A stretch of 64,000 nt of DNA, taken from contig OZ237743.1 in NCBI GenBank assembly GCA_965178125.1, positions 124,001-188,000 on the forward strand. The letters are read 5' to 3'. The position numbers and the translations under genes are program-made. This stretch comes from Bilabrum cf. latius (lineage: Eukaryota). The notes beneath the pieces are model-generated. The model was not told the origin of the DNA and did not search any database. It saw nothing but the letters and a program-made list of their open reading frames with translations. Each line of letters starts with the position of its first letter. Position 1 is the stretch's first letter. Positions 1 to 64,000 of this stretch are shown here, piece after piece.

Positions 1-1
1 G

Positions 2-2022
2 GAATAGGAGCGGATGCAGCGGCGGGAGCGGAGTAGGGCCAGCCCGGTGCCGATGCAGGCTCCAGCTCCGCCCGATGTGGTGCGTGACCCGGAGGGCCGG
101 GCCCGCATGGTGCGCGTGGCGCCTGCTGAGGACGGGGGGCTGGCTCTGGTACTGGAAGAAGAGACGTGCCTTGCCACCGCGCTGGTGCAGGTGCAGCTGC
201 GGGCCCTCAAGCAGGGCATGGCCGAGTACTCGAGGGGTCCCGGGCTCGTGTAGCCAGTGGTCATTCGAGACGCGGGGGAGCTGATCAGGCAGGCGGACCG
301 CAGGCGGCTCGTGAGGGGCCTGCAAGGCAGCAGGAGCAACGATAGAGGCGTCATCACGAAGGGCGGGAGGGGCAGTGGGGGCGCTGCAGAGGGTGCTTCG
401 GACCGGGTGCATGGTGGAGGTGGCGGCGGGGACGGCAAGTCGTCGCAGTGGGAGGAGGAGGGGACAGGGCTTGTCAGCAAGGGGGGCACTCGGACAGCAA
501 ACGCCGCTGCTGCCTCGTCGCACTCGTCACACCACTCGATGGAGCGGGCCGTCCGCATCGCCACGATGTTCAACGCGATGGCCACCGGCCGCGTGACGGG
601 CCCTCGGCCCCGCCACCGGCCTGTGATTTCGCCCGAGAGGAAGAGGCAGCTGGCCGCGATGCGAGCCGCGCGACGGGCCACCGGGGGCCATTCCGATTCC
701 GATTCCTCGGACGACGACGAGGAGGCACAGCGGCGAGCACGCGGGGGCAAGGGGCACCGCATCGATTCGTACCAGCAGCCCCTGCCGCCGGCCCCAGGGT
801 CAGGCCAAGCAGCCCGTGCCCCTGTCTCTGGCGCGGGAGGAGGCAGAGGAGGAAAGAGAGGGAAGGGAGCCGGCAGCGCCCGCCCGTCCTCCCTACCCAA
901 GCCGCCGCCCGCCGCCAAGACATCGGCGGGTGTGGGCTGCCGCACGAGCCGGTGGTTCAACTTCACGGGTCGCGGCGGAGACACGCTGGTGGTTGAGGAA
1001 GACATGCGGGAGAGCAACTACTGCTTCGACGTGCCGCACAAGATGCTGCTGCTGCTGCGGAGGCAGAGGCAGCAGCATCTTGACGCTGTGCGGGGGGAGC
1101 TCTACCGCTTCGAGGGCCAGCTGGACGCGCTGGGTCCGGTGATCCGGGGGACCATGCGGGCGCACGATCGGAGGGCAAGCAAGGGTTAGGGTGCGGGCGG
1201 GCGGGTGGGCGGGGCTGGCACCGCTTCCACTCCACTGCTCGGGGGGGTCTCGTCCCCAACCAGGGGCGGGGCCACCGCGGGTGGTCGCAACCTCGTGGAC
1301 TCCGAGGGCGAGGAGGACGAGAGCGACGGGTGGAGCGTCGCGGACATGGATTTGATCGACCAGTACAGCGCGCTGGAGGCCACTCTGTCGCTGAGGCGGG
1401 AACTCGACTACGTGCTGGGCTGGCTGCGCGCGCACGAGACCAAGGTGAGGCAGCAGATGGAGCTGCTGGACCAGGCCGTGCAGGTGGGCCACGGGGGCGT
1501 GGGCCCCGACGCGAGCACATTCAAGCAGAGCACCAAGCGCAAGGCGGCGGACTGGGCCTACATGCCCATTAACCTGCACGTGCAGGAGCTCAGGGTCAAG
1601 GAGCTCAACGACCTGCCCCCCGCCAAGCGCTACCACGGCACCGCCAGGGAACTGAGGATCCTCGAGGATTCCCAGGGAACAATGGGCGGCGGCAGCCAGC
1701 TGGACCGACGGGCCGCATACGTGGAGGCCCTCAAGATCGCCCAGTGGGCCGTGGCCAGCGACCAGCTGGGCGAAGGGGGGCACCAGGACGACGCCGGCAG
1801 TGGCAGTGGCAGTGGCGCCGGGGCTGGGAGAGACCCTGCATCCTCCCGTGCCTCGCGGCTGAAGCGGCTGCGGGCCCAAGCTGCGGCTGTGCTTGGGCCC
1901 CCCGTCGCCGTGGAGCACTCGATCCGGCCGTGGAGCCCCTTCGGCCGGTGGGCCCAAGCCCAGCGGAGACTGAGAAGGCTCGTTGACGAGATGCTGGCGG
2001 TGCGGGCGAGCCAGGCCTAGGA

Positions 2023-2061
<39 letters not shown>

Positions 2062-4960
2062 AGCTGCCCAACGCGGGGCAAACGGGGCAGCAAGGGAAGC
2101 CTCGGGGCCGCAGTCGGCTGCTGCTACGATTGCCGGCCCGGCGCAGGCCCAGCCCATGGGCGTGGCTCGTCTGAAGGGGCTCAAAGGCAGGGCGGAATCG
2201 CTGAGGCGGGCCAGCATGGACGTGCCCGCCCTGTAGCGAGTGTCCAGCGCGGCGCAGATGGCCAACGCAATGACGAACGCGGACAGCGTCGGGTTCGTGG
2301 GTGCCGCTGCGGGTGGGCCTAGCTCGCTGGACACAGGCAGCGATGGTGTGGGGGGCGGGACGGGCAGCCACGGGTCCTTCGGTGGCCGGCTGCAGCGGAG
2401 CGCAGCAGGAAGGGGGGCGGGGGGGCATGGGATGGGCGCTGCTTCGACCCGCGCGGGGTCGGGCCCCGCTGCCATGGCCGGCGGCAATGCCTCGTCCTCG
2501 TCCTTGTCGTCTACCAGGGGCTCTCTGGGAGACATGCCGCCCCGGCTTGCGCGCCGGTCTTCTCTGCTGCACGGGGGTAGCCGGCTAGCGAGGGAGGCCG
2601 GGACCGAGGCTCCCGCCGCCGGCGGTGTGACGAGTGCATCCAGCGGCATCACCGATGTGTCGCCGGGAAGCGGGCCACCGCCGAGCGAGGATGCCCCCGG
2701 CGGGCTGGATCTCGGGGAACACGCCAGCGCGGTGGAACACAGCCACGACGTAGACGGGGATGATGACGAGGACGAGGGCAAGGAGGATGATGTTGATGGA
2801 GAGCGCAAGGCAGAGCATGCAGCCACGGGAGGCGATGCAGGAGCAGGGGGTGGCTAGGCGGCCTCTGTCTCCGCCTCGCGAGGTGGGACCAGCACTGGGA
2901 CAACAGGCGCGGCCACCCGGGAGCAGCTCGCCCTCGACGGTCCTCGTTCCTCCACGAGCGCCTCCTCGGGGTACGACCACGAGGCTGACGAGCAGCTGTT
3001 TGCCTACCGGAACCTGATCTACGACACAGTCACCTGCGGTGCCTTCGTGGCGCACACGATGCGGTTCTCGGCCGGCAAGGACATCCTGAGCGCGGCCCAG
3101 CGGCTGCTCTCGGTGACGCAGAAGCGCATCCGGCGGGAGATAGAGGCCTAGCCTCGGCTGCTGGCCATCCGCCAGCTGCTCATGCAGGCCCAGAGCACAC
3201 CGGAGGAGAGGCTGGCTGCGCAGCACCTGCTGCTGCACTGCTCTGACCCGCGCCGGCTGCGGCTGCTCCCCGCCACTGGCGACCCCGCGCTGGAGGACCT
3301 GAACCGAGCCGTGATGGCCGAGGTAGACGCGCGCTTCTCGCTGGAGCTGCGCACTGAAATGATCATGTGCCAGGCCGCCACTGCGCTGGTCACTAGCTTT
3401 GCCAGGAAGATGCGGCTGGTGCAGCGGTACCTGCCCGAGGTGGAGGGCGGGCGGCTTTTGCAGCAGTACATGCAGGTGGGCTTCCTGGTCGAGTTCGAGT
3501 CTTTGCTGTCGGCGTGGGGGGATGAGTACCACATGATCCGAGATTTCTATGCGGCGGTCCGTTCCCTCGCCCGCTTCAGGATCAGGCTGCTGCCCCCCCT
3601 TCCTCCCGACGTGGAAGAGGTGCACCATCGCCGCGATCGCCCTAGACATGCAAGGGCGGGGGAGTGGGCCGGGGCAACTGCCGAGGCAGCCCCGATCACC
3701 GATGGGCGGCAGGTGCGCGGCACCGACGACTGGCGGGCGGGGAACGGCGGCGCGGTCCGCCTGCGCCGAGAGGGCCCCTTCATTGTGATCGAGATGCGGC
3801 TGTGGCCCATGCGGCCCCTGAAGGGGGAGCACAGGCAGAGGGTGCTGCGGGAGTCGTTCGGGCTGGGCATGGGACACGGGGAGGGGGGCGGGGTTGGTGC
3901 CGGGGATCGGGACCACCCCCCTGGTGTGGGCGGGGTAAGGGGTGGCCCCTAGGGCGCAGGCCCCGCGCCCCGCCCACTGGCCCCGGATGAACAAGAGACA
4001 GGGCTGAGGAGGCACCCGCTGTACGACCTCGACCCCGCGCTGCGTCGGCTGGTGCCTCTTGAGCTGGCCGCCGGTAAGACCATCGCCGTGGTGCCTGTCA
4101 TGTTCTCCATGGGCGTGAACGAGTTCCACTACCTGGGCTCCAAGGCGTCCATCTTCCTAGACATGGAGGTGCACAGGAGGATCAACCTCGTGGAGTTCCA
4201 TCGGCTGCTCGTGTACTTCACTTCGTACAAGCAGTACTACCACGAGGAGACGGAGAAGCTGCGGCAGCACGCCGTGGAGGAGGCCCGCCTCAGCTGGGGC
4301 AAGGTGGGGGCTGCTTTCCAGGGAGTGCAGCCCGCTGCGGTGGGGGACCTGGCGGGGCGCGGCGCAGACGAGGAGGAGGGGGAGGGGGGTGGGGATGGCG
4401 GCGCAGGAGGCGGTTCCGGTCTATCGTCTGCTGGTGCTGGCCCCGGTGCTGGCCCGGGGTTCGGTTTCGGTTTCATCCGTCGAACCGCTTCCAAGGGCGG
4501 GGCGGTGTCCCCGCTGGTCCCCGACTCGGCGCTGCCCCCGGCCGTGCGGCTTGAGCTGCGGCGCCGCGCGGAGAAGATCGAGCTGCTGAGCGAGAGGTTC
4601 CGCAAGCTGGCGGAGGCCGTGGCTCAGGACCCGACGATTCAGTCGATCGAGGCGCTGCGACAGGCGGAGGAGCTTGTGCGGCGGCTGCACGGGGGGCGGG
4701 TCACGAGCTGCAAGAGCGGCAAGGACAGGACAAGCATGATGGTGACCCTCGAGCAGGCGAGCATCTTGCAGCAGGAGCACGGGCTTAGCGGTCTGGAGCG
4801 CAAGGAGGTTGCTGAGATCATGAGGAGGCACGGGACAAGGCGAGCCAACGTGCTCAAGAACGTGGGCAAGGCCAAGTACGCCATCAACACGATCCAGCAG
4901 TACTTCTTTAACGATGAGCTGAGGCCTCCAACCGGAATGGGCGGCGCCAAGCAGACATGA
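2..4960 (+). CDS. INPP4: Inositol polyphosphate 4-phosphatase (INPP4-type), 5'-truncated by the window edge; single frame with 8 in-frame TAG codons
   Basis: ORFs 14-253, 257-1189, 1205-2020, 2240-2857, 3182-3952 and 4052-4960 share one frame and are separated only by TAG (5, 251, 1187, 2018, 2234, 2855, 3149, 3950). The gene ends at TGA 4958-4960. It has the catalytic CX5R motif TSCKSGKDRTSM plus INPP4-like segments YDTVTCGAFVAH, GFLVEFESLLSAWGDE and PVMFSMGVNE. Confidence 0.9.
2018..2061 (+). repeat. (CAGGAG)n coding microsatellite (QE repeat) whose first Gln position is TAG
   Basis: tag gaa cag gag cag gag cag gag ... is read directly from the sequence. Confidence 0.9.
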
Positions 4961-6231: not shown

Positions 6232-6533
6232 ACGTTTCTTTGAATAAATCTACATGAATTCATTGTACTAGAACTGGACCAAGCCTCTTTGCGCGGTGAA
6301 TGCAAGCTCCAGGCACCACAGATGCCAAGTTGAAGTTGGCGTTCTGCCAGTGGCAGTGCCGTGCAATTCAGTGCTCTCCCAGTTCTCTTGGTCGATCCAA
6401 AACAAGGTCGCTTCCTCCCCAAGACGACACAAATCTCACACTAGTAGGGCTAATGGGTGCCTTGAGTGGTTCGCGGCGACGATGCTGCGTGTGCTGCAGC
6501 CAGGTATCGGAGCTGTGCGGTGGCCCTGCATCG

Positions 6534-8150
6534 ATGGATTGTAGCAGCTTTTTCTCTCAGCTGTTCCAGCCGGGCACTGCTCCGTACCTGGCGATGATTG
6601 TGGTTGCTCTTGTGATTGCAAGGGCCACAGACCAAGTGTTCTACTATCGCATTGCTATCGCGATGTCTCCCTATAGCTGGTATTTTAGCTCGTGCATCCT
6701 ACCCATTGCGTTCCTGATCATTGTTTGGCCAATCGTTGGGGCCAAGCTCATCTGGTACCCGAAGCACATCACTAAGGAGATGCTGGCGATCCCGTAGCAC
6801 AAGTTTGCCGTGCTCGGCGCTCTGGACACGGCGTACAACCTGCTCAGCACCTGGCCCATCAAGGCCACGGGTTCCACAGTGGCCAACGTCCTCGCTCAGA
6901 GCGTGCTTCCGATCAACATGGTCATGTCGTTCGTTGTGCTGCGCACCCGGTACACGGGCCAGCACATGTCTGGGGCTCTGCTCGTCATATATGGCGTGCT
7001 GCTGCGGCTGCTCCCTGCCCTGCAAGACTCGAGCGACGAGGGCGACGGAGACGACGAGGTGCCGGCGGGGGCCTTCCTGGCGTGGAGCGTGGTGCTGGTG
7101 GGCTCCCAGATATTCGCGGCTCTCTCCAACGTGTACAAGGAAGTTGCCCTCAAGGGAACCGAGGACGTGGACGTGTATTACATGAATGCATGCATATCCT
7201 CCTGGCAGCTTCTCTTCGGGATTCTGACGGCACCGCTGGTCGGACTCAAGTTCACTCCCGATTACGTCCCGCTGAGCGAGCTGGGGACGTACATATCCAA
7301 CGCGAACAAGTGCTTCTTCGGGCACAACGCCGTGGCAGGGGACGTGTGCGACGCCGACTCGGCCTCTCCGATGGCTATCTTCTGCATCTTTATCGCTTTC
7401 AATCTCACGTACAACATACTCATGCTGGAGATATTCAAGCGGGGGTCCAGCGTGCTGTTTGTGGTTGCATCTGCAGTGCGACTGCCACTGGTGGACATCC
7501 TGCTGCTGTGGCCTCTTCTCGCGGGAGTAGCCACCGCCACATTCACCTCCTTTGACGCGTTTGCGCTGGTCGCTCTGCTGCTGGCCATGTACCTGTACAA
7601 CTCCCAGCCGGAGATCAAGTCGAAGAGACCTCCCCTTGGGCTGCAGGAGCTGTGGGGCGGGTTTGTGCGGCACTGCCTGTGCTGCGAGTGCGGGTGCCTG
7701 GAGCAAGTGCTCGAGGGCGGCGAGCACGGGGATGGCGAGACGCGGGGGCTGCTGGACAATGGAGCGGCAGGATCAGGATCAGGATCAGGATTGGGTAAGG
7801 GGACGGGCGGGAAGCTCAGGCTGCTGGCAGCAGCGCCCGGGGCCACAGGGATGGCGGTTGCGCGGGCCTCCTACCTGGACGAAGATGAAGATGAAAACGA
7901 AGATGGAGCATCCGCGTCTGCGGCCGCACTGCGAAGCAGTGTGGAAGGCGATGGTGTGGTGCTACTGGACGCTGAAAACAAGGCGGTGGGCGCTGGTGCT
8001 GCTGCTGCTGCCGGTGTGGGCAGGGGGCTCGGGGGGGCTACCCATCGGGGGGGGTATGGAAGCGCGGATGCGGCTGCGGCCGGCGTGGGCCCAAGCGATG
8101 GTTCGACTGGCTCCTCTGGGGAGGAGCCTGCGGCTGTTCCGGCATTGTGA
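6534..8150 (+). CDS. CRT-like (chloroquine resistance transporter / CLT family, DMT superfamily) transporter
   Basis: ORFs 6300-6797 and 6810-8150 are joined by one TAG (6795-6797), giving ITKEMLAIP[TAG]HKFAVLGALD. About 10 hydrophobic helices. Family-like segments include QSVLPINM, ALSNVYKE, MNACISSWQ, KCFFGHN and FNLTYNILML. Ends at TGA. The start could instead be ATG 6453. Confidence 0.85.
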
Positions 8151-8453: not shown

Positions 8454-9179
8454 TCACTGCCTCCCCCGACTCTAGTCCTCGGCGGGAGCCTCCTCCACGG
8501 CCCTCCGCAGCGCCTCCGTGTCCACCTCCCTGGGCTGGCCGATCCCAAAGGCGGGGGCGCCGCTTTGGCCGACCCCTCCGCCGCTTTGGCCACTGCCACC
8601 GGCAGCGGCGGTGGTCCTCAGCCTCTTGACCCCCCCGTCTGACTCCGCCCCCAGGTACCCCGTGGGGACCCCCCCCTCCGAGCTGAACACCAGGGCGGGC
8701 TTGCCCTGTAGAGAGCGCAGCACTGACTGGCCCGCGATGGCCTCGCGAGATGGCGGGCGAAGGGGCTCTGCGGGCCAGAAGGACCCGTCCAGCTGCAGCC
8801 GCACGTGCTGCTTGCCGTCCATCAGAGCCACGCAACCGTTCGAGAGGCGCAGCTCGGGCCTGTCGTTTCGCACGCCCAGCTCCGCGCAAGGTACGACTCT
8901 GCCAGCCATCTGCCTACCCTTCGGGTGCGCAACAATCACGCGATCCACTACAACGTTATGAAATCTGGCGTAGCGAAACCTCGTGTACGCTGCGAATGCG
9001 ACCGAGGCAGCTGCAACTCCCCCTAGCACGGCGACGGCGCGCTCCAAGAAGACCAATCGTCGCTCCAGTTCATCTGGATGCAGAAATGCTGCCAATCCTT
9101 TCTACCTTCGAGCAGCTGCGGTGCGCTTGGGGTGTAGGCCTTGCGTCCAAAAAGTACAAGCATCGGTGATGAACACCAT
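8454..9179 (-). CDS. Hypothetical single-pass membrane protein
   Basis: ATG 9179 to TGA 8454-8456 with TAGs at 9102 and 8472. Hydrophobic stretch AVAVLGGVAAASVAFAAY. Divergent from the phosphatase gene. Confidence 0.5.
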
Positions 9180-9418
9180 CGCGATTCAAACACGGCTCCA
9201 CGTGGCCGGCTGCCTACAACAATCTCTCACACGCTGCTCGCTATAATGCAGACTATTTGGCTGCCTTGGACTCGCCCGATTCCCCGGACATTGCCGCTGC
9301 AGGTGTCTCAAGAAGGTGCTCCACGCAGACCACCAGCAAGTGGTCTTGCAGTGGGCTGCAACTGAGCTGCGGATGCAGGGTGCGCAATTTGGATCCACTA
9401 TTGAGGCCGTTCGGTACA

Positions 9419-11693: not shown

Positions 11694-11736
11694 GCATGCA
11701 TTGACCCACCAAGCCGCCATTCTGCGCGAAATCACA

Positions 11737-40466: not shown

Positions 40467-40816
40467 TCTGCTAAATAGGCGTGCTGGCTGGGCTGTGTGC
40501 TATATAGACCTTGTTACTAGCAGGCCCTGGAGCCGGTGGTGAGTAGCGAACACTTTGGCTGAATGCCGAACCGGTAGCACTAGGACGAGATGCGCCCGGA
40601 GTGACGCACTCCTTAAATTGTATAGAAAGAGGTGTGGTAGCAAAGCGTGAGGGTTTGCGATTTGTTTTGTTTCAGAATGAAGCGCCCCGGATGAAAGATG
40701 CCGCGTTCCAGTTCCAAGGTTCCGGTCGGCGGCGTTGCGTGCATTTGGACATGCCTGCTTGGATCCACCCCGTTCTAGCTTTTACGTGTCTCGCAGAGAA
40801 CCTCTCGCGAGTAAAC

Positions 40817-52498: not shown

Positions 52499-55400
52499 TT
52501 ACGCGCGCGCAGGGGGCGCCAGCGCGCGCTGTAGCTCCCGAATGGACACGAAGCTGTCTGCATCCGCGTCTGCAGCTCTCAGCACCTCCACAACTTCGGC
52601 GTCCGGCATGGGCAGATTCAGTCTGCCCACAAGATCTGGGAGGTCTGCCACGAGCAAGCGACCTGCCTTGCTGACGTCTAGTTGGCGGAACAGCTCGTCC
52701 GGGTCCCAGCCCTTTGCTCGTAGGGCATTTCTCACCTTCTGTACTCGCTGCTCACTGTCATGCAGCGCTCTTGAGTCCCGAACGGTAAGCAGCTTGGCCA
52801 TGGGTGAGCCAACCCACTCGACCGCCCCGGTCCGACGACGCAGGCACAGGCGCTCGAAGAACAGTTTCCGATCAGGGGTTGGAACCTTGCCGATCTGCTC
52901 TAGCGCGGCCGCAGCTGCTTCATCTGGCAAGTGCAAGTCGCAGTTGATGAATTTCCCGAGAGCGATGCGGACGTCGGAGCCGGGTGCTTTGGTGACCTTC
53001 GGCCTGCCGGCTGCATCTATGAGGGTGGAAATGGGGATGTTCCAGAGCTGTAGCTGCCCAAACCGCGAGTCCCCAGTTGCAGAAAGCTTGCAATCGAGGT
53101 GAATGGCTCGCCTTACGGCCTCTGCCTCGGCCAGCGAAAGGATGACCATGGGTGTCGGTGTCCCGAGACCCTGCCCGCCTGCAGCTGCCGTCTCGCGCGA
53201 GTCGTCGAAGGTCATGCCTACTCTGGCAATCTTGACGCTGTATTGCGGCAGGTTTGTGGCCTCCTGCAACGTGAATCGTTCAGTGAGCAGCATCCCTGGT
53301 GCGAGAGCGGAGAGCTTGGGCGCGTCGTCATCCACCTTCCAAGTCGATGCCTGAAAGGCAGAGCCGCCCAATGCCTCGCGGAGGGTCTTCTCCGCACCTT
53401 GAGCATCCCGTCTTGCTACGGCCGACTGGATGGCGGAGATTTTGGTCCTCAGCTCATCGATGCTCCAGGGCTTTGGCTCCGGTAGCTCCATGTCTGGCCG
53501 CTTGTACCAGTTCACCTGCGAATATGGCACAGCAAGCAAATAATGTAAAAGGGACAAAAATGCAGCTAGCGTTGCATTGGGGTCGAGACTAGCAAATAGG
53601 TGTGCAGTGTATATGCGTAAGATGAGCAGGAAGACCAATCCATCTCTGTCTCACATACTACAGCTCCTTCTCCTGGTCCTGCTCTCGCTCTGCCTCTTGC
53701 AGCACTTCCTGCTCCTGCTCCTACTCCTGGTCGAAGTTGTCCGCCCGCTTCGCGGCCGTGCCACCCCCACTGGTCCCATGCGCGTTGCGCTCTAGCACCG
53801 CGTCAATCCTTCGCTCCGCTATGCCTCCCCTCACGAAACCATAGAGCTCATCTCGAGCCCAGGACGCGAGAGAGACCAGAGATGCCGACTCCTGACCAGT
53901 ACCGCCTGCGCCGGCCTCCGTCGGAAGCCTCGGGGTAAAGTCCACACTCTCCCTGAAGACTGCCACCCTCTGCAGCACCTCCCGGTACTGCAGCACCAAC
54001 CCCTGCTTTGCGTACTGCCGCCCCTGGATCCCATACATCTCCAACAGGTCGTCAAAGGCCGCCCGCCTCCACACGTTCGACAAGTCCTGCTTGCACAGCT
54101 GCTGGAACTGCAAGCTCTCGTGCTCGATGCTATTGCGCACCAGCCAGCCCATCACGCTCCGGATCTTGGGATCACGAGCGAAAGCTTCCGCGCCAACTGC
54201 CTGCTTTACCAGCCCCTGCACCTCTGGCACCACACACAACCGGATGGTCTGTCCCTTTGCAATGCCTCTCATGCGCCAGGCCGCCTGAGCGGCGTCCCTG
54301 AATGTGCAGTCCTTGCCAAGGGTGAGCACGGCGCGAGCATTGGGAGCCTGCTTGATGTCTGTGCCTGTCGTGTGCGCGTGAGAGTATATGCAGAAGCGGC
54401 GATCCTTGGGCAGGCCTGCCTCGTCCAAAGGCACCGGCTCAGCTTTGCCCCGAACCAGTACCATCTTGTGGTTGTCCTCGTCCATGTAGACGCAGCCCTG
54501 CATCGTTTGCAGCCCCACCCGTAGCATGTAGGCCGCCGCCTGCCTGTTATTCATCCCGGTAATCAGCGCGCCGGCGTCGATGAGAGCGTGGAAAGGAGGG
54601 TGCGCATTCGCGATCGATTTCAGCAGGCCAGGCACGGTCCACTCGCGACCGGGAATCAGCTCGTCGCTGGAGTCCCACACCACTTGCGGGTCCGTCAGCA
54701 CGTCGAGGAACCTTCCCTCCGAACCCGGCTCGAAGTCGCACTCGCCCAGGTCCAGGGGAGCCAGGGCAGAGGGCGTTCCCGAGAAGCCGTACCTGGCGCC
54801 AAAGAGGCAGTCGGACCCTAGGTCCACGCCAGAAGAGGAAAACTTGGCCTCCTTGTGGGTAGTCACCTCGGGAAACACGTATTTTACCATCCACATGCGG
54901 ACCATGGGCCCGAACAACCGGAACAGCCGGCACGCATCGGCCATCTGTTCCGGATCTGACGGCTGCATGAACTCCAGGGGCGCGATATCTGGAGGACCCA
55001 GCTGCGCCTCCGAATAGGCAGCTTCTGAGATTCCGAGCGCTTCAGCACTCGGAAGTTGGATCGCAGTCTTGGCTTTGGCCTAGTCCAAGCTGGCCGTCCT
55101 CTGCCTGACTCGGGCAGCCTCAATCGCCCGCCAAGCCGCGCCGTACCTAGACAGCCACACCGTCCTTGCATCATCTGTCCAGTGGCCAAACTCGATCCGA
55201 GAGGGTCTCTGGCGGTGTGGCCCACTTTCGCACCCCATTTGAAACCTCTGGTGCTAGATGATCCGCGCCACGTGCCTGGGCATGAGCCCCTCATTGAGGT
55301 AGGCGGCTGTTGTGATCCCGATGAGGCAGTCGGGCTGAGCGAAGGAAGACATCTCGGAGGGGACGTCCTTCCCCACGAATGGCACGGCTGTCTTTAACCT

Positions 55401-58400
55401 CTCCTTTCCCAGCCCGTTCCCACCCAGTTCTTCCATCCGCTTGATGTCACCTGGCCGAAGCAGGCCGTACGTAACCCGGTCCACCTTGCCTAGCACGTGC
55501 GCCAGCAGGCTGTCGAGCCAGTCCAGAACGATCTTTAGCGACGCCTTGCCTGTTGGGCCAAGTTTTGGAGCAACTCGTTTGAGGGCCTACTGCGCCTGCT
55601 CATCAGTTGTGCTGGGGTCCGCCTGTAGCACCAGCGAAAGGTCAGCGCCAGAGACAGGAACAGCTTTGCTCTTGTCAGTCGTCAGGGCTCCGCAGCTCAT
55701 GAGCCACCAGACGGACCACTCCGCTGCTGCTGGCCTGAGCTCGGCGTGGTAGAAGTCCTTGCTCAGTAGCACCAGGTGAGGCGAGGACTGCAGGACGCGT
55801 TGCTCCAGTCCGGCTCGAATCACCCTGCGAAGCCGATCCATTGGTCCTCGCCCGCTCCTCATCTGGCGCAGCTTGGCTTCATCCGCAAGGTGCTCGTCCG
55901 CAGCACCTGGCGTGCCCGCGCCTGCTCCGGACTCCGCCCCCAAGGAATGCTCACCTCCTCTATTGCCACCTACAAGGGCGCAAGATTTCGGATCCCCGGC
56001 TCCTTCCAGCAAGGCTGCCATCGTGACGGTCTCCAGAAGATCAACGACATAGGTCCACCTGAATGGCCTAGGCTGCAGCGTCACGTTCTTGCCAGCGGGA
56101 TACAGCAGCTCCGACTTGAGCGGGCTTAGGATCATGTCCACCTCATCCATCAGCAAGCGACCACCCTGCGACTTGCCAAAGAGGTCAGTGATCTTTGCCA
56201 GCTCCTTCGCAGCTTCCAATGACTGCTGCTTGCTATCGTCTGACTAGCCTCCCGCCACACCCTTGCCGTCAGTACCAGCGCCGTACCCGGCTTGCTCGAT
56301 GAAGAGAAGCTGCATTGACTTGACGGCACCCGGACTGGTAAGCACCACGCCGCGCTGCTCTGCCGTATCCTCTAGTTTGCGACGCAAGGCGCCGAGGACT
56401 TCAACGCTGTCTGCAGAGTTTCTGTTGAAACCAAACGTGACGACCCGCTTTGGCATAATTCGAGCAAACGCGGCCCACATGAGGTCTTGCGTCTGGGCAA
56501 GCAGTGCAGGAGGGCACATCACTGCTGCGAGGCGCTTCCCATCCGCCATTGCGAGAACGAGGAACACAGTAAGGAAAGCCGTCTTGCCACTGCCCATCGC
56601 AAGGGAACGAACTTTGCTCTGCACGCCCGATCCGGACGGATCCAGCTGCCTAACGTAAGCTTCCAGGGCCGAAATGTCGGGCACGCCGTCCTCGTCCACA
56701 GGGACCGGGGCCTAGGAGGAACTGCCGCCTCTGAAGGACGCTTGTCTGGCGGCTGATTGCTTTGAACCAGCCGGTCCATCAGCTGCAAGCTCGCCGCGCT
56801 GGAATTGCATGGACCCAGGCAGACCGTAGAGGGGGACGCAAGCCTCTTCGCAGAAGCGACACGCCACCTCCACCTAAGCCCTGCGAAGCAGCCAGCCGTT
56901 GATGAGCTCCATCATGAGGAATCTCGAGTCCATGGATACTTCTTGCACTTCTGCGGCGCCTGCAGCCCCCTGTTCCAACTCTTTGAATTGCAGAGGCACG
57001 TCAGGAAACCTCGAGGCAAAGCTCCTAAAGCCCCTGATAGACGCAGCTAGGTCCTGCTGGGCGTATAAGAGAGCCTGTAAAGCCTCATCCGATACGGACT
57101 AGCGACCTGCAGCGGCTGCTGGGGACCCACCATGACCACTGCATGCCTTCTTGAGCATTGCTACCAGTCGCTGCGCCAGCCCAATGCACCGGTTGGCCTG
57201 CGACACGCGGTTGGCCTTGAGTGCCAATGCGTGCGTGCACTCGAGGGCAGCATGCACCTTTTCCCCGGGCATGCAGGGGTTCATGTTGAAGAGATCGAGC
57301 TCTGGGCGTGAGCTGAGTAGAGTGCCCAATAACAACTCGTCCCAGACGAGTGCGCGCTGTTTGGCCATTCGCTCAAGTCGAGTCCGTACTACCAACACAG
57401 TGGTACGCATGCTGTCGCTTCCAGCGCCCGATGCTGCAGCCCCTGCATCCCCCTGTTCATCCTGGTGGTCATCGAGGCGATTCAATGCAGCCAGCACTGA
57501 CGACAATCCCCTGCGCACATCGTCCAGGTCTGTTTGCCGCATCGCAACAAGCTCGACAAGGAGCTCCTGAAGCGTATTCAGTGCGCTGCCTGCTATGCTT
57601 GGCAGCTCGCCACAAGTTGGGAACCGCTATTTCAAGGTCCCAGCGTCAACGACCATGCACGCCATTGCCTCTTGCTACCTAGAAGCCACGATGCTCTTGT
57701 ATGTAGCGCACGAATCTTCCAGCCTATCAATCATAGAGTCGGCCACGAAAGACTTTTCGATAGGCTCCCCTGTGCCTTTGTCGAATGGCAGTTTTCCGGG
57801 CGGAACGCGGACGCTTGCCTGGGTTGCAGACAGCTGGGTTGTGTACCTCTCCGCAAGACGCCCCATGGGCATCGTTGCAAACTAGGCCAGATCGAGCTTG
57901 CTAAGCTCGACGTCCATACCGAGGCTCTGGTGCTTGTCACTTGAAGAGCCTGCGGCAGCGGATGATGTGCCTACTCGGCGGTCAAATGCCCGTAGAACCA
58001 ACGGTTTGTCCGGGCACGTGTCAAAGCAGCTGGGAGGCTCAGGCGGTAGCATATCAGACGTGACGAGCACAGCGGGGTTGTCTGCCTTCGTGGGCTTCGG
58101 CACAGGACCAGTAGGCCCAAATGAAAGGAACGTGTCGGTACGGCTGGAACCCCCCGATTTGCGCTCAATGCGCTTCTTTGGGCCGTCAACAAACGCCGAG
58201 AACCACGACTTTACCCATGACGATGTCTCCGGGCGATCCGTGTATTTCCCCAGAGGCTATGGAGGCAGTGGCCACCCGCTCGACGCGCCGTCTGTGGCCG
58301 TGGTGCCATCACAGTTGATGGATCCAGCCACAGCAGCAACGTACCAGGGGACGATCTTTCTTGAACTGACCGAAGTAGGCACGCTCCAGTCGGACTGCTT

Positions 58401-61400
58401 TGCAAACGTCCACCTCGCCAGCAGCCCCGCGAACCGCCGGCCGCACTATTTCCCGCCAGGCACCAGCTTCAGCTTAACATGCCCCAAGGCAAGCTCAATG
58501 AGGTAGCGGCCGATCCTATTATAATCCTGCTAGATGACGGAGTCGATGGTCTGCTCGATCTTACGTGAGTTGCTCGTGAGATTTCTGACCGGTTCGTAGC
58601 TACCGAATACTTGATCGTCCCAGTTGTACATGTTGGTCATGTAGAAGAAACTACCCCTTGAGCCATACTCATGTTTCTTCGGTGGCGCCGCCTCGGCATA
58701 GTTCTTCGCAGTACGCAAAACCATCTAGCCCAGCATGTCGTAGAACCCTGAACGCCTCGGTAGTCGAGCCGTCAGCTACGCTTCAAGCACGTCGCCGAAT
58801 CGAAGAGCCCGCCACTACGCAGACAACTCCAAGGCACGCTCCATCTCCGTAGACTTTGGCTCTGCGTCGGCCGTAAGCAGATCGTCGCAGGCGGACTGGT
58901 GATCGGCGCGAGAGAGTCTGCAGCAGGACTGCACGTGTCCATGAACACCAAGGTAATCCATGTAGATCGCGGTATTGGTACCCTCGAACGGCATCTTAGC
59001 GTTTCCAAACCGCAGTGCCAGAGCCAGCTTCAACCTTACTGCAAGCATGTCTGGGGTCACGTCGCTTGCAAGCCCTTCCAGCTGTGAGAGCCAGTAGGAT
59101 TCCTCCCAGGAGAGCGCCTTGTCCGTGTTTATGCTGGGCATCAGCCTCGCCGCGAGCTCGTACTCCCTTGCCCTGAGCAAACAATTGAGATAGTACAATG
59201 CTGCGCTCACCGAGGGTAACTTGAGAAACGACTCAGACACAGACACTTCCAGAAAGTAGGACCGCGATTGGGCAAACGCCAGCCACCCCGTATCTCCCCT
59301 GTGTTGCGACACGTACGTTGAGAAGGGCGCATGCTTGATGTCAGGCCTCTCCAGCGGGTGCGATGCAACGAACAAGCTGAGCCCGCCCGAATCGCTTTCA
59401 ACCAGCATGGCGTGTGGGAGACCTTTCATGAGGGAGCTGGGCCCAAGATTTGAGCCGACCGGGAGAGCCACAGGAGGGAGGTGGCCTGCTGGCTAACCAG
59501 GTGCAGCACGCGTTTCCGGACCATCGCGCTGCAAAACAGCAAGCGTATCCTCCGTGTACCGATCACATACGAACAGATCGTTACGATCTGCAAAATATAG
59601 GCGCGCGGGTCGACAATCTAGTGCGGCTGCGCCGCCCAACGCTGCACCGCCCGACGCTGCACCAGCGGGGTGCACACCGTTGGAGCTCAATGAAGTGCCC
59701 GCGCCTTTATCTTGTCTCACTAAGTCCTACAACTGTGTTTCGTTTAATTCTCTGCACAAGAGCTCGGTCTCAAGCCGCGGCATACTGACAGACTGGAGCT
59801 CACACAGCTGGCCTGGTTTGACTGCGCTGCACCACGAGATTGAGCTGACTTGCCTCGCCGAGCCCGACGCTTCCGCTGCATCGAATGTCCAAGGGAGCAC
59901 ATGGCCTAGTGACTCAGATCTCGCCAATGTGGCGGCAAGACGATCTAGTGGAGAGCCAGGGGGTGCCTGCTGCAGGTTGAGAAGCAAAGCATCCGGCTTG
60001 GTCCCGGGTGGCGCATCGACGAGACCGCTGCTGTCCGGGGTGAGCTGCAGTGCATCTGGAAATTGAGCCCTAGCAGCAGCAACCACGGCCGGGTCACCAA
60101 TCATGCCAGGAAACAAAGACTTTCTGTACAGTCGAGCGGCCCTGCGAGCCTCAGGCTCAAGGTGAGCTTGCACAACTGCAGTAGGCAAGGCATCCAGGAT
60201 ATACAGGGCATCTTCAGTCGGAGCGTGACCGGCTGCATCATCACCAGGCTCGTTTCCATCCGACTGGCTCTACTCCTAGCCCTGTTCCTCACCATCGCCA
60301 CTAGATTCATGCGCCTGCCTGCTCTCATTTCGGGTCATAGATGCAGGCGGGTACTCCCCGACGAGACGCCCGGTGGCTGCGCACAGCCACCACTGGAGCC
60401 CCTTTGAAAGCAACGCATGCGGTACAGCACCATTCAGCAGCATAGATGGAATCAGGCTGTATGCGGTCAGATCCGACATGTCCTCTCCTTCGGGTCGCAG
60501 GCGCCTAATTTCCACGCCGTCTAGTACCCTTGCCTCGGTGCCCAGATTCCCAGCAACGAAGTGGAGGAGTGTCGACACTCTGAATTTGACTTCAGCAGGC
60601 GGTAGCTGTGCGATGGAGAACCTGGCATCTGAGGTCCAGCAGGCCACGCAAAAAACTCGCCGTGCGTACTCTTGGAAGTAGTACGCATCGCATGTCCGTC
60701 TGTTTCTGCGCAGAACCAGCTTCTTGAGGATCGAACCGTCTGCCTCTGGGTGCTAGCTCACGCAGTACACTTCAACAAGGTCCGCACCACTGTTTATTTG
60801 CTCTCGGTTTGCGTACAGAGCCATGTAGCGCCCGAGTTCAGCGGCGCCATCCGAATCGGCTTCTCTCACAGCCTGCATCCACGTGTCCTGCAGAACGCTC
60901 GACACCCAGCGTTCCGGTGACGAATCGAGAGAGGGAACCACGGTCACAAACTAGTCCTCTTCGGGAAGAGCCTCGAGTGAGTCGACGTCACACGTCAATT
61001 TCATCGAATACGACCTTCTCTTGCCACTTCGCAAGTCCTCGCTCACGCCCCGACCGCGGATCCACTCCGGAAGGCCCATGCATTCGAGCGTGCCTTTGTA
61101 CTACGACGGCTTTAAGCCCTGCCAGTGGTGTATCTCCAAGTCTCCATACCCAGCAAATGCAGGCATGGAGCTAATGGCGTACTGCACCAAACTCTCATGA
61201 CGGGCCACTACGGTGCAGAAGGGGGCATCATTGCCTGCGAAGAACGTCTGGCAAGCGAGTGTGTTATTGACTGACGCAGGCAGAGGCACGACATCGCTAC
61301 CCTTGGCTGCAGTCATCCTGCAGCTCTGTGCGTCCATCACGTGCTTCCCGCTGGCATCCTCAAATGCCCCATTTGAATGCAAAGCGGGCTTGGGGGTACC

Positions 61401-64000
61401 CCACGAGGCATCGCGCTAGCTCGTGTATAACTGTCGACTCACAGAGAGCGCATGCTCAGGCACCCCGATGGTTGGCCATCCCAATGCTGACGGTCCGGCA
61501 GCTCCGGAGCCGCTTGAAGCGGCTTTTGCTGAACTGGGTTGGTCAGACGATTCGCCGGACCCGCAATCCATCGGGTGTGCGCCGCAGATCATTTTGCTCC
61601 ACGATTCGGCCCAAGCCGGGCCAGAACCCTTCTAGCACGCGACAAAGTAGCCAACCAAAGTAGCCCGAAGCGAGTCGATCGCATCGAACACCTGTGTCTC
61701 GCTCACCCTGACGAGCCTCTGCAGGTATGGAGCCTCCATCCCGTCCTGGAACTAGCTCTCTTTTGCATCGCTCGGGTGCTTCGGCGCTGAGAGTCGGTAC
61801 TTGGGTGGCTCCAATTCCATCACGTACTGCTTTCCAAGGCCGTGGAAAGTGTGGAAGAAGGCTAGGCTTCCCATGACCCGGCCGATCCCTTCGTCGCCCA
61901 TTTCCAGAGGGGCAAATCCTTGTCGGAGCAGTGCCCAGTGAGTCCGGGATAAGACCTGTAGCTAAAGATCCGCCCTCTTAGAACCCTACCGCTCGTAGAA
62001 ATCCAGGACTGGGTCAAGATGAGCAGTGATACACTCACGCATTTGGGAGCGGCATTGCCTTAACCGTTCCAGCAGTGCCTCCGTCGGCGCGGCGGGGTGG
62101 TTCGCCGGAAGCTGCAAGACTCGCGTGGCTGCAAGGAGCACTCCACCAGCAAGCCGACATGCGAAAGTAAGCGGCGTCACAAACACAGGGTTGATGTTAC
62201 CCTTGCACATCCTCGCAATTTCCTCGCAGACGGCCATCAGCGGACCCACCGTGCCCTCCGGGGCGTGGGCCAGCTCGTGCCAGAGCGACCCATACGTCGA
62301 ACCGAGAGAGACAAGGTCCGTCGGGGCATGATCAGGCATGCCTGGCAAGTGTGCACAAGCTAGTGGCACTGCGGGAGGGCCGGCGCTATCATCCCTGTCA
62401 GTCGAAATCACGCCCTGCTACAACCCAAACCTCTAGCGAGCGAAAGGGCTTCCATGAAACAGTGGCCCTGACGAAGATGCCGAACTAGCTCCTCCTCCTG
62501 TCGCGGATGCGGCAGCTGCTGCTAGTCCTGAGCCACCTGTTCCTCCCTTGGACGTGCTGCCGCTCGTCAAATCGGGGCACGCGGACTCTGCTACCGCACC
62601 GAGTCGAAACACGGAAGTCCACAGCACCTCACGGAGTTCCTCGTTGAAGAGGGCAGATCCGCGCGCCTCGGCAAAGAATCCGAGCACCAGGGGCACACGC
62701 ATGGATGACGTCACTGTCAGAGCGCTCAGCAGCTCCTGCGAATCGGTGTCCGTCAGGTAATTCCCAAAGGAATCAAGACCCTCCGCCAGCACCACATCAT
62801 CTTCATCGGCTGCACCGTCCTCGATGCGTGCAAGGACGCCGTGTGCCTCAGGAGTCATGAAACTGTGCGATGGGTAGGGTACTGTCAGACTGCATCCCTA
62901 CCGGTGCTTGTCCGCAGACCCATCAACCTTGATTCCAGCCTAACCCTTCGTGATCTTGTCGTCGAACTTGGGAGGGGTGAACGAGATCCTTGGCGACACG
63001 AGCTTGCCGGGGGTTCGCCCGATGCCACCGCCGCCGACGAGCTCTATGGCCATCAGGGCCTGTACGTCCCGAACCGCCGCGAACTCGGGGCACTTGTTGG
63101 GCACGTCGTCCGAAAGCTGCATGCAGACTCCCGCGACGAACTTGGGACAGTCTTTCTCGGGGTCTTCCATCTTCATTTTGCGGCATGCCGTTATCGCGAC
63201 GCCATTGACTGTCGGCAACCCCAGCTCAGCGGCAAAGTCGTACGTGATCTTGCTGTTGCTCCAGTTTTGGGATGCTTCTTGCATTGAAGAGCTACCGCCA
63301 CCTGTGTTCCATGCAAACGAGCCTATCAGGCGATCCAGCCTGCCTTTCGGTTTGCTGACTCGCCTAGCGCTAGCCACAGCACTTAATGCTTGGTCCTCTG
63401 CCTGACGACACCCCAGAATTCTCTGTGCAGCCACTCCAACCAGAGGGTCTTCGAGGCTCCACAGCTGCATCGGTACCTCGAGCGGCTCTCCGATGGCGGT
63501 GCTCTGCAGCAGGGTATGCGGCTCGATCTTGGAAGGGCTGAACCTTTCGGTCTTCGCACCAGGCACGGCTTCTGCGCGCAGGAGCTTCGTGACGAGAGAG
63601 CCCTCTCCTTGCGGGCATCCGTACCTCATGACCGACAGAACAAAGTACAAGACTGCAAGCGAGCACGCTTGGCGCTCGGAGACTCCAGCCGCATCTTTTC
63701 GGGGGTTGAAGTGCGTATAGCTGAGGTACTTGCGGAGGAGATCGACGGCAGAATTGCACAGGTCGAGCACTCGTTTCTGTGGCAGCGTGCCGCACGGGTG
63801 CCCGACCGTTACGGAGCTGCTCCCTGCCTTCCCCAGCATCCATCCGATCGAGTCGAAGGGCAGCCGCTGCAGTATGACGCGCTTGACAAATCGGGACCCC
63901 ATAAGCGCCCCATAGTACCCTTCCGACTGCTCCCATATCCGGTCGGCCAGCCTCGAAGCCCCTTCTATTAGGCGCAAGACGTTGTCAGAGGAATCCGTGG
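52499..64000 (-). CDS. Giant (>3,700 aa, 5' end beyond the window) DUF3638/DUF3645 P-loop protein with a C-terminal EF-hand pair; intron 53516-53654
   Basis: One frame from 64000 to 53655, with about 30 TAGs as the only stops in the segments I traced. Motifs ELINGWLLRRA[TAG]VE, MGSGKT, LMDEVD, AVPFVGKDVPS..SSFAQPD, GFSGT, LIDAGALITG, HTTGTDIK, QAAWRMR, EQE repeats, SLAEAE and EF-hand-like DADADSFVSIRE. Ends at TAA 52499-52501. Confidence 0.85.
53516..53654 (-). other. Spliceosomal intron (139 nt, GTGAG...CGCAG)
   Basis: The phase-0 junction TAT|GTG reconciles the two frames, and the interior is AT-richer than the exons. Confidence 0.8.

What the first reader, a model, noticed from the sequence alone, without database searches (positions are those of the whole stretch)
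1..64000. Non-standard nuclear genetic code: TAG is a sense codon (Gln) in every gene of the window
Seen in the sequence: all recognisable genes on both strands are broken by in-frame TAGs (about 100 by hand count). Same-frame ORFs resume right after each TAG with intact family motifs. The largest case is a 12,975-nt frame (11737-24711) with about 27 TAGs and no TAA/TGA. Housekeeping genes such as AMPK beta carry TAG in the middle of the CBM48 fold (31209, 31035). Established: nuclear UAG reassignment is usually coupled to UAA (UAR = Gln, as in many ciliates). UAG-only reassignment is known from very few eukaryotes, for example the fornicate Iotanema spirale (Gln) and an uncultured rhizarian (Leu). 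Inference: if this GC-rich protist is outside those lineages, it is an independent, possibly undescribed, codon reassignment that standard annotation would fragment.
Basis: partly seen in the sequence, partly recalled or inferred. Interest (0 to 1): 0.97.

Follow-up and report, generated by a model that had tools for sequence, protein, structure and literature searches.

The report
TAG read as glutamine in protist
This GC-rich protist genome piece uses the stop codon TAG as an ordinary glutamine codon while keeping TAA and TGA as stops, a rare genetic-code variant already known from a few other microbes but apparently new for this lineage.

Summary
Read with TAG as sense, the window's ORFs fuse into frames of 4324, 3514, 2375, 1652 and 1581 codons. 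Fifteen ORF segments (19,226 codons) hold 101 in-frame TAG and no internal TAA or TGA. Pfam domains run straight through TAGs.

TAG means glutamine:
- One TAG sits at a near-invariant Gln of a SecA-like motif, Q in 139 of 143 aligned homologue segments.
- A 99%-identical relative has Q at the CRT-like TAG.
- Against a 54%-identical metagenomic orthologue that also needs TAG as sense, TAG pairs with Q 10 times in 30, the same rate as CAG/CAA.

TAA and TGA end the genes (9 TGA, 3 TAA). One TAA lies 122 nt before a contig end.

Independent public runs reproduce 51 of 51 TAGs checked. One contig lacks a GT..AG intron yet keeps a TAG 3 nt from the junction.

The pattern equals NCBI table 15. The lineage is tentatively a stramenopile near Cafeteria, from a single-gene tree. 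No suppressor tRNA or eRF1 could be examined.

In passing: one giant gene needs a +1 shift at a TGA.

The parts
11737..24711 (-). Giant FG-GAP / IPT-TIG repeat protein with a C-terminal membrane region. It has 4324 codons and 27 in-frame TAG and ends in TGA (11737-11739). The TAG at 14848-14850 lies inside a CAG run (QQ-TAG-QQQ).
52502..63998 (-). DUF3638/DUF3645 P-loop protein gene; its 5' end runs off the window. Exon 1 is 53655-63998 (3448 codons, 34 TAG). The intron is 53516-53654 (139 nt, GTGAG..CAG). Exon 2 is 52502-53515 (338 codons, 0 TAG, EF-hand pair). The stop is TAA at 52499-52501.
56874..56876 (-). TAG (residue 2375 of the DUF3638 protein, 'LLRRA-TAG-VEV'). It aligns to Q in P0003, in P0007 and in the TAG-using orthologue L001 (CAG there).
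53658..53660 (-). TAG one codon (3 nt) upstream of the exon 1/exon 2 junction. It is present on the intron-less contigs of runs X5 and X6.
40475..47602 (+). Ankyrin-repeat ORF with 2375 codons and 8 TAG, ending at TGA 47600-47602. In homologues it is collinear with the next ORF, so it is the first part of one gene.
47568..52313 (+). Ankyrin + SecA-DEAD-like ATPase ORF with 1581 codons and 13 TAG, ending in TGA at 52311-52313. The X5 contig ends at 52335.
50214..50216 (+). TAG at the near-invariant Gln of the 'PY.TQ' motif upstream of the SecA-like P-loop. Q stands there in 139 of 143 aligned segments from the 150 best representatives.
50946..50948 (+). TAG inside the SecA_DEAD Pfam match. The homologue column reads Q 50, K 36, R 24 of 146.
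47597..47605 (+). GCC TGA CGG. This is the place where the Ank ORF must shift +1 (skipping the T of TGA) to continue into the AnkSecA ORF collinearly with homologue P0041.
6300..8150 (+). CRT-like transporter ORF with one TAG at 6795-6797. The 99%-identical protein P0013 has Q there. The ORF ends in TGA.
29783..31562 (-). AMPK beta subunit. The CBM exon lies in ORF 30849-31562, with TAGs at 31209-31211 and 31035-31037 and a third further upstream. The 5' splice site GAAG|GTGAGC is at 30964. The AMPKBI exon lies in ORF 29783-30874 (1 TAG).
37951..40466 (+). Leishmanolysin-like (M8) gene. Exon 1 is 37951-38756 (3 TAG at 38203, 38326, 38413). The predicted intron is 38757-38917 (161 nt, GTGAG..CAG). 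Exon 2 is 38918-40463 (0 TAG). The predicted splicing restores HEIMH (HExxH). The stop is TAA at 40464-40466.
2..4960 (+). Large ORF (1652 codons, 8 TAG, 5' open) with a C-terminal CX5R phosphatase-like motif. One TAG heads an (EQ)n repeat. The ORF ends in TGA. It has no Pfam match.
9173..11098 (+). Purple acid phosphatase ORF with 1 TAG, ending in TGA.
31978..35469 (-). DUF2828/DUF7788 (VWA-like) ORF with 1163 codons and 1 TAG inside a GAG run. It ends in TGA.
25150..28894 (+). Two ORFs without a firm family: 25150-27468 (1 TAG, ends TGA) and 27197-28894 (2 TAG, ends TAA at 28892-28894).
36034..37686 (+). ORF with an acidic tail and 1 TAG, ending in TGA. It has no Pfam match.

Best explanation
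The window is nuclear DNA of a GC-rich (62.5%), intron-poor eukaryotic microbe. Its translation system reads UAG as glutamine and still terminates at UGA (mostly) and UAA. This is the pattern of NCBI table 15.

Shown here:
- TAG is an ordinary in-frame codon, making up about 11% of all Gln codons: 101 TAG against 637 CAG and 157 CAA.
- It stands where homologues have Gln.
- It is kept in independent sequence data, including intron-less contigs.
- Relatives at three distances share it: about 99% identity, about 87-94% identity, and about 54-57% protein identity.

Inferred, not shown:
- A tRNA-Gln with anticodon CUA decodes UAG.
- The release factor eRF1 has lost UAG recognition while keeping UAA and UGA.
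- The organism is a stramenopile related to the bicosoecid Cafeteria.
For: (a) Frames.
- Only TAG-as-sense gives giant frames. log10 P of a 4324-codon frame without TAA or TGA is about -26.
- Pfam matches run through TAGs: AMPK1_CBM, SecA_DEAD, DUF3638, TIG and CRT-like.

(b) Glutamine.
- The TAG at 50214 aligns to Q in 139 of 143 segments. The others are V 2, E 1, L 1. In the stricter run it was 6 of 6.
- The TAG at 50946 has Q as the commonest residue, 50 of 146.
- At the CRT-like TAG, Q stands in the 99%-identical P0013 and in 10 of 22 rows.
- The DUF3638 TAG at residue 2375 aligns to Q in 2 of 2 distant homologues covering it, and to CAG in L001.
- Window against L001: the 30 aligned TAG partners are Q 10, E 6, A 4, S 3, K 2 and five singles. 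In conserved context (9 or more of 17 identical) the 14 partners are Q 9, E 2, S, A, K.
- In the same alignment Q pairs with Q at 0.35 and E pairs with Q at 0.053. The log-likelihood is Q -68.3, E -77.1, K -88.6. BLOSUM62 sums are Q 52, E 41.
- Low-complexity context fits Q: QQ-TAG-QQQ and two (EQ)n repeats.

(c) UAA and UGA as stops.
- There are 0 internal TAA or TGA in 19,226 codons. By my reading of the ORF ends, corrected for the introns and the shift site, 9 genes end in TGA and 3 in TAA (positions checked).
- The spliced DUF3638 frame ends at TAA 52499, and the X5 contig ends at 52377. The AnkSecA TGA is at 52311, and its X5 contig ends at 52335.
- Table 6 extends no real gene by more than 32 codons.

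(d) The TAGs are real.
- 51 of 51 TAGs in 44001-64000 lie in X5 pieces with 0 differences. 8 of 51 lie in the listed X6 pieces.
- The joint 53511 to 53651 (139 nt, GT..AG on the minus strand) is present in X5 and X6.

(e) Relatives.
- Fragments P0011, P0012 and P0040 (94, 87 and 93% identity) end exactly one residue before window TAGs.
- L001 is one 1985-codon frame with 10 TAG and no TAA or TGA.

(f) Eukaryote.
- One spliced GT..AG intron and two predicted ones, plus AMPK beta and ankyrin proteins.
Against: - 20 of the 30 TAG partners in L001 are not Q. That is expected from Q's own 35% conservation, but it leaves Glu as the runner-up.
- The two AMPK-beta TAGs align to E and G of human beta-2.
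- One TAG sits in a GAG (poly-E) run.
- No tRNA-Gln(CUA), eRF1 or peptide evidence exists, because no genome is held for the window and the window has no credible tRNA.
- The runs are not on record as RNA, and the tool calls X5 'probably DNA'. RNA origin is inferred from one intron-less joint and from contig ends.
- The window cannot show whether TAG also terminates some genes.
- The taxonomic placement rests on one gene tree plus best named hits.
Confidence: 0.88

Rival explanations
1. UAG has a double meaning. It is Gln inside genes but also acts as a terminator near some 3' ends, as in the context-dependent codes of Condylostoma and karyorelict ciliates.
For: Nothing in the window excludes it. 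By construction every frame read with TAG as sense ends at TGA or TAA, so a terminating TAG just upstream would be invisible. AnkSecA has a TAG 7 codons before its TGA. The abstracts listed describe such codes in other eukaryotes.
Against: None of the 12 genes needs TAG as a stop. Each has a TGA or TAA at a plausible end. TAGs are spread along the whole length of the long genes.
Confidence: 0.07
2. Both UAG and UAA encode Gln (NCBI table 6, as reported for Amoeboaphelidium protococcarum, ulvophytes, many ciliates and Hexamita). TAA would merely be too rare in this GC-rich genome to appear in 64 kb.
For: UAR coupling is the commonest pattern (passages of PMC5304391 and PMC11687900). TAA is the rarest stop triplet in the window, 288 of 128,000 triplets.
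Against: There are 0 in-frame TAA against 101 TAG, although CAA is a quarter as common as CAG (157 to 637). The same ratio would predict about 25 TAA. Three genes end at TAA; one lies 122 nt before a contig end, and another is followed by TGA two codons later. L001 has 10 TAG and 0 TAA.
Confidence: 0.03
3. UAG is a sense codon for another amino acid. Glu is the runner-up. Leu, Ser, Lys and Tyr are known or conceivable elsewhere.
For: E is the second commonest partner, 6 of 30. One TAG lies in a poly-E run. One AMPK-beta TAG aligns to E. UAG=Leu, Ser and Glu exist in other lineages.
Against: Q stands in 139 of 143 segments at the SecA-like motif, against E 1 and L 1. Q stands in the 99%-identical relative. 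The likelihood favours Q over E by 8.8 natural-log units in the L001 comparison, and L, Y and W are essentially absent as partners.
Confidence: 0.02
4. The TAGs are not translated. They would be assembly errors, pseudogenes, or sites removed by splicing or RNA editing.
For: None found.
Against: 51 of 51 TAGs recur in contigs of a run from another study and organism label. A contig lacking the intron still has a TAG 3 nt from the junction. TAA and TGA are absent from the same frames, which rules out decay. TAG positions are shared with relatives about 10% divergent.
Confidence: 0.005

Closest known systems
NCBI translation table 15 ('Blepharisma nuclei; some phages: TAG=Q', label as printed by the tool)
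   Same: Same codon table: TAG = Gln, with TAA and TGA as stops. It translates the window's genes without interruption.
   Different: Table 15 was defined for a ciliate and is used for phages. The window is from a GC-rich, intron-bearing eukaryote that is not ciliate-like in composition.
Iotanema spirale (fornicate): UAG = Gln, UAA kept as stop (PMC5304391, listing and passages; PMC11687900, passage)
   Same: Nuclear UAG-only reassignment to Gln in a non-ciliate protist.
   Different: Iotanema is a metamonad. The window's CRT-like protein groups next to a Cafeteria-containing clade, so the event is probably independent.
Protocruzia tuzeti and two phyllopharyngean ciliate lineages: UAG (not UAA) = Gln (PMC11687900, passage)
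   Same: Same reassignment. This shows that it arises repeatedly.
   Different: These are ciliates. No sequence of theirs was compared here.
Amoeboaphelidium protococcarum (aphelid): TAG and TAA appear to encode Gln (PMC6299283, passage; PMC5304391)
   Same: Non-ciliate with stop-to-Gln, found with algae. The window's relatives also occur in 'algae' and 'protist' metagenome runs.
   Different: That report covers both UAR codons, whereas here TAA is a terminator and never in frame. The best named homologues here are stramenopiles, not Holomycota. No aphelid sequence was available for comparison.
Uncultured rhizarian exLh (UAG = Leu) and Scotinosphaera (UAG = Ser), with UAA kept as stop
   Same: UAG is uncoupled from UAA in a nuclear code.
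   Different: The amino acid differs. Leu and Ser are not supported here: L 1 of 143, and S 3 and L 1 of 30.
Stop-codon-dependent +1 ribosomal frameshifting (antizyme UCC-UGA-U, bacterial prfB CUU-UGA-C, Euplotes AAA-UAA/UAG). Recalled, not taken from a call.
   Same: The Ank/AnkSecA gene needs a +1 shift exactly at NCC-UGA-C.
   Different: Only one case was seen. No stimulatory structure was found (z = 0.18). A fixed 1-nt insertion that splits the gene is not excluded.

Membership tests
UAG-only to Gln nuclear code (NCBI table 15 pattern) | UAG occurs in frame inside conserved protein-coding genes | tested here: met
   101 TAG lie in 19,226 codons. Pfam matches span TAGs.
UAG-only to Gln nuclear code (NCBI table 15 pattern) | UAG positions correspond to Gln in homologues | tested here: met
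   Q in 139 of 143 segments. Q in the 99%-identical relative. Q 10 of 30 against L001, equal to Q's own rate of 0.35.
UAG-only to Gln nuclear code (NCBI table 15 pattern) | UAA is not a sense codon and terminates genes | tested here: met
   0 internal TAA and 3 terminal TAA. One TAA lies 122 nt before a contig end. This covers 64 kb only.
UAG-only to Gln nuclear code (NCBI table 15 pattern) | UGA terminates genes | tested here: met
   9 genes end in TGA. The AnkSecA TGA lies 22 nt before a contig end. Reading TGA as sense gives no long real frames.
UAG-only to Gln nuclear code (NCBI table 15 pattern) | A tRNA-Gln with anticodon CUA | not testable with these tools
   No genome is held. The window has one ARAGORN call (Thr-GGU inside an ORF) and no Rfam tRNA.
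UAG-only to Gln nuclear code (NCBI table 15 pattern) | eRF1 changed so that UAG is no longer recognised | not testable with these tools
UAG-only to Gln nuclear code (NCBI table 15 pattern) | TAG retained in mature mRNA | tested here: inconclusive
   Intron-less contigs of X5 and X6 carry the TAG at 53658-53660. However, the runs are not on record as RNA.
UAR to Gln code (NCBI table 6) | UAA in frame at Gln positions | tested here: not met
   0 of 19,226 codons. 0 of 1985 in L001. Table 6 changes no long gene.
Ambiguous stop/sense codes (Condylostoma type) | The reassigned codon also terminates near mRNA 3' ends | tested here: inconclusive
   No gene needs TAG as a stop, but such use could not be seen with these data.
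Stramenopiles (Bigyra/Bicosoecida neighbourhood) as host lineage | Proteins group with stramenopile sequences in trees | tested here: inconclusive
   In the CRT-like tree, window+P0013+P0014 (99/98) is sister (85/91) to a clade holding Cafeteria roenbergensis. It is one gene, midpoint-rooted, with few named rows. The best named DUF3638 hit is Pelagophyceae sp. at 28% identity. No rRNA or multi-gene set was available.

The most novel reading that the evidence does not exclude
This is the first nuclear stop-codon reassignment in stramenopiles. A whole clade of GC-rich heterotrophic flagellates related to Cafeteria, with members differing by about 1%, about 10% and about 45% in protein sequence, reads UAG as Gln while UAA and UGA still terminate. 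That is unusual, because reassignments are mostly seen in AT-rich genomes and usually couple UAG with UAA. In addition, altered termination may permit stop-dependent +1 frameshifting. A gene of about 3,950 codons (Ank + SecA-like) is only readable by skipping the U of an in-frame UGA.
Probability: 0.3. Interest if true: 0.82.

Novelty: new member of a known kind. Interest (0 to 1): 0.62.

Why it matters
- Standard annotation would cut every large gene of this organism into pieces of about 100-200 codons. The public protein fragments P0011, P0012 and P0040 end exactly at TAGs, which shows this has already happened.
- UAG-only reassignments are few. Each independent case tests how UAG can be uncoupled from UAA, through eRF1 specificity and tRNA-Gln(CUA).
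- A GC-rich lineage, apparently with cultures (several organism labels among the runs), would be a convenient system for such tests.
- Relatives occur in algal and protist metagenomes. Their genes will be mis-called in metagenome pipelines unless table 15 is used.

Tried and rejected

- No whole genome is held for the window. A genome-wide codon analysis and searches for tRNA-Gln(CUA) and eRF1 were therefore impossible.
Paper supplements were not asked for.
- The only ARAGORN hit, tRNA-Thr(GGU) at 21543-21629, lies inside the FG-GAP ORF and has no Rfam support. I treat it as false.
- A MAFFT run on nine proteins of 3-4.8 kaa timed out. It was replaced by pairwise BLASTP.

**Sequencing runs**
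- The look-up of sequencing runs listed no RNA holder.
- In read laying the table of differences was cut: 40 shown, 2402 not shown. The codon changes at TAG sites in the roughly 8-12% divergent contigs of X8 and X10 could not be read.

**Searches for relatives and names**
- The 'shorter' protein search returned only 2 fragments.
- The one metagenome scan gave 1 locus.
That sequence was not sent again.
- Two other atlas queries gave no taxonomic help. DUF2828 gave Nucleocytoviricota-rich clusters. M8 scored 0.83 or less.
- Cluster look-ups gave no names for the closest homologues.
- A 52-aa PDB query around the 50214 TAG found nothing.

**Side checks**
- The PDB alignment of AMPK beta puts the two TAGs opposite E and G, which is uninformative for Gln.
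- The fold downstream of the +1 site has z = 0.18, so no stimulatory structure is indicated.

**Literature**
- Searches found no paper reporting a nuclear UAG reassignment in a stramenopile or bicosoecid.
- The library holds open-access papers and bioRxiv only, so this is not proof that none exists.

**Readings considered and rejected**
- An aphelid origin, because TAA is not sense and the best named hits are stramenopiles.
- A giant-virus or organelle origin, because of spliceosomal introns and the gene content.
- A frameshift at the M8 and AMPK-beta frame changes. Both are GTGAG..CAG-type introns.

Full report
**Observation**

Under the standard stops the window (64,000 nt, 62.5% G+C) has 44 stop-to-stop frames of 300 aa or more, the longest 1054 aa. 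Reading TAG as sense gives 56, with frames of 4324, 3514, 2375, 1652 and 1581 aa. Making TAA or TGA sense instead does not produce such frames; the longest are 1054 and 1152 aa.

The frame 11737-24711 (-) has exactly 27 TAG and ends in TGA. Over 15 ORF segments that I accept as coding (19,226 codons) there are 101 in-frame TAG and no internal TAA or TGA. Three further TAG lie in exon 1 of the leishmanolysin-like gene.

TAA+TGA make up 1.37% of all triplets. A 4324-codon frame without them therefore has log10 P of about -26. TAG is as frequent in frame (0.53%) as out of frame (0.63%).

Pfam matches run through TAGs:
- SecA_DEAD
- DUF3638
- TIG
- CRT-like

**What the genes are**

- A giant FG-GAP/TIG surface protein.
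- A DUF3638/DUF3645 P-loop protein.
- An ankyrin plus SecA-DEAD-like ATPase.
- A CRT-like transporter.
- A purple acid phosphatase.
- AMPK beta.
- A DUF2828/DUF7788 protein.
- A leishmanolysin-like peptidase.
- Several ORFs without a family.

The window has GT..AG introns with a GTGAG 5' end:
- 53516-53654 in the DUF3638 gene.
- 38757-38917 in the M8 gene, whose predicted removal restores HEIMH.
- A 5' site at 30964 in AMPK beta.

It is therefore nuclear eukaryotic DNA, compact and intron-poor.

**Are the TAGs real and present in RNA?**

- Run X5 has another organism label and study than the best holder. Its contigs have 0 differences over pieces that contain all 51 TAGs of the genes in that stretch. 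The listed X6 pieces hold 8 of the 51.
- X5 and X6 each have a contig that joins 53511 to 53651. It skips 139 nt bounded by GT..AG on the minus strand, with a 4-nt ambiguity that resolves to GTGAG..CAG.
- That intron-less contig carries the TAG at 53658-53660, 3 nt before the junction.
- After splicing, the frame continues into ORF 52502-53515 and ends at TAA 52499-52501. The X5 contig stops at 52377.
- The convergent AnkSecA gene ends at TGA 52311-52313, and its X5 contig stops at 52335. That leaves 52336-52376 uncovered.

This behaviour fits transcripts. However, the runs are not on record as RNA, and the tool itself rates X5 'probably DNA'. I therefore count 'TAG retained in mRNA' as likely, not proven.

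**Which amino acid?**

(i) The SecA-like part (50085-52310, TAG as X) was searched against 1.84 billion representatives, and the 150 best were aligned locally.
- The TAG at 50214 ('PYTT-TAG-LFAILGLL') falls on a near-invariant Q: 139 of 143 segments with a residue there, the rest V 2, E 1, L 1. In the stricter run it was 6 of 6.
- The TAG at 50946 falls on a column with Q 50, K 36 and R 24 of 146.

(ii) At the CRT-like TAG (6795), the 99%-identical protein P0013 has Q, the 57%-identical P0014 has Q, and 10 of 22 rows have Q.

(iii) A metagenome contig, L001 (5956 nt), is a single 1985-codon frame only if TAG is sense. It has 10 TAG and no TAA or TGA. It is 54% identical to the DUF3638 protein.
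- The 30 aligned TAGs (20 of the window, 10 of L001) pair with Q 10, E 6, A 4, S 3, K 2, and T, I, G, D, L once each.
- In conserved context there are 14 pairs: Q 9, E 2, S, A, K.
- In the same alignment ordinary Q pairs with Q at 0.35, and E pairs with Q at 0.053.
- The log-likelihood of the partner set is -68.3 for Q, -77.1 for E and -88.6 for K. BLOSUM62 sums are Q 52 and E 41.

(iv) Against eight distant DUF3638 homologues most TAGs fall in variable regions. Residue 2375 aligns to Q in 2 of 2.

(v) TAG occurs inside a CAG run (QQ-TAG-QQQ) and heads or interrupts two (EQ)n repeats. One TAG sits in a GAG run.

(vi) Against Gln, or neutral: the AMPK-beta TAGs face E and G of human beta-2.

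Taken together, Gln is well supported. Glu is a distant second.

**UAG only**

- No TAA stands in frame in 19,226 codons. CAA is a quarter as common as CAG (157 to 637), so the same ratio would predict about 25 TAA.
- Three genes end in TAA and nine in TGA. This is my reading of the ORF ends, corrected for the introns and the shift site; positions were checked.
- Table 6 leaves all long genes unchanged and extends TAA-ended ORFs by 2 and 32 codons only.
- Whether TAG also terminates some genes cannot be seen in this window.

**Relatives and lineage**

- Fragments P0011 (94% identity), P0012 (87%) and P0040 (93%) come from public assemblies and were called with the standard code. Each ends exactly one residue before a window TAG, at 58815, 59727 and 52131. 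Relatives about 10% divergent therefore share these TAGs.
- Contigs of X8 ('protist metagenome') and X10 lie on the stretch with about 8-12% differences.
- L001 and P0014 show the same usage at 54-57% protein identity. None of L001's 10 TAGs coincides with a window TAG, as expected for a codon interchangeable with CAG and CAA.
- The best named homologues are Cafeteria roenbergensis (CRT-like, 52%) and Pelagophyceae sp. (DUF3638, 28%).
- In a CRT-like ML tree, the window with P0013 and P0014 (99/98) is sister (85/91) to a clade holding Cafeteria. I left out P0024 and two cluster duplicates, P0034 and P0035.

This is one gene with few named rows, so 'stramenopile near bicosoecids' is tentative.

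**Comparison with what is known**

- The pattern equals NCBI table 15 (tool label).
- UAG-only Gln is reported for Iotanema spirale, Protocruzia tuzeti and two phyllopharyngean lineages. UAG = Leu is reported for a rhizarian, and UAG = Ser for Scotinosphaera. These come from passages of PMC11687900 and PMC5304391. I saw search listings and passages, not whole texts.
- Amoeboaphelidium is reported with both TAG and TAA as Gln (passage of PMC6299283). That does not fit the TAA stops here.
- Seven searches found no report of a nuclear UAG reassignment in a stramenopile. The library is open-access only, and the supplements were not seen.
- I file the finding as a new member of a known kind.

**Mechanism**

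- Shown: UAG is a frequent sense codon at Gln positions, and UAA and UGA end the genes.
- Inferred from established knowledge of such codes: a tRNA-Gln(CUA) and an eRF1 that no longer recognises UAG. Neither could be looked for.

**Noticed in passing**

The Ank ORF (ending at TGA 47600) and the AnkSecA ORF (from 47568) are collinear parts of single proteins in P0041, P0042 (Monosiga brevicollis) and P0046.

Skipping the T of GCC-TGA-C gives '...GASPMRA DGTGSTPL...'. This matches P0041 '...GADVMVS DGSGCSAL...' without a gap.

The X5 contig is identical across the site. No downstream structure stands out.

This is either a programmed +1 frameshift at a stop codon or a fixed 1-nt insertion.

Noticed in passing
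window 47560-47630 (+), site GCC TGA C at 47597-47603: The 2375-codon ankyrin ORF and the 1581-codon ankyrin/SecA-like ORF are one collinear protein in homologues P0041, P0042 and P0046. Here they join only by a +1 shift that skips the T of an in-frame TGA. The independent X5 contig is identical across the site. This is either a programmed +1 frameshift at a stop codon or a fixed 1-nt insertion.
   Followed up: partly
window 31978-35469 (-): For the DUF2828/DUF7788 (VWA-like) protein, the nearest ESM-Atlas clusters are dominated by Nucleocytoviricota (score 0.96). The gene sits in the most GC-rich part of the window (0.69) and has only 1 TAG in 1163 codons. A link to giant viruses was not examined.
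   Followed up: no
window 11737-24711 (-), residues about 100-480 and 830-1250: Two blocks of near-identical FG-GAP repeats of about 68 aa. Two repeats carry a TAG in the same context (DNGD-TAG-FGQS at residues 229 and 1081), so a TAG-bearing unit was duplicated.
   Followed up: no
window 29783-30874 (-): The AMPKBI domain (residues 65-133 of this ORF) is normally C-terminal. Here about 230 further codons of Gly/Pro-rich and coiled-coil-like sequence follow before the TGA. This is either a real extension or an unrecognised intron.
   Followed up: no
window 54000-57300, run X5: Besides identical contigs, X5 and X6 hold second contigs that are 10-20% different over parts of the DUF3638 gene, for example 14 differences in 104 nt and 49 in 228 nt. 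These contigs have higher depth. A paralogue or a second haplotype or subgenome may exist.
   Followed up: no
window 21543-21629 (-): ARAGORN calls a tRNA-Thr(GGU) inside the FG-GAP coding frame, but Rfam finds no tRNA there. It is probably a false positive.
   Followed up: partly
window 25150-28894 (+): ORF 25150-27468 ends in TGA. The first Met of the next ORF's plausible start lies only about 40 nt downstream, in another frame. These are either two very closely packed genes or one gene with an unrecognised intron or shift.
   Followed up: no
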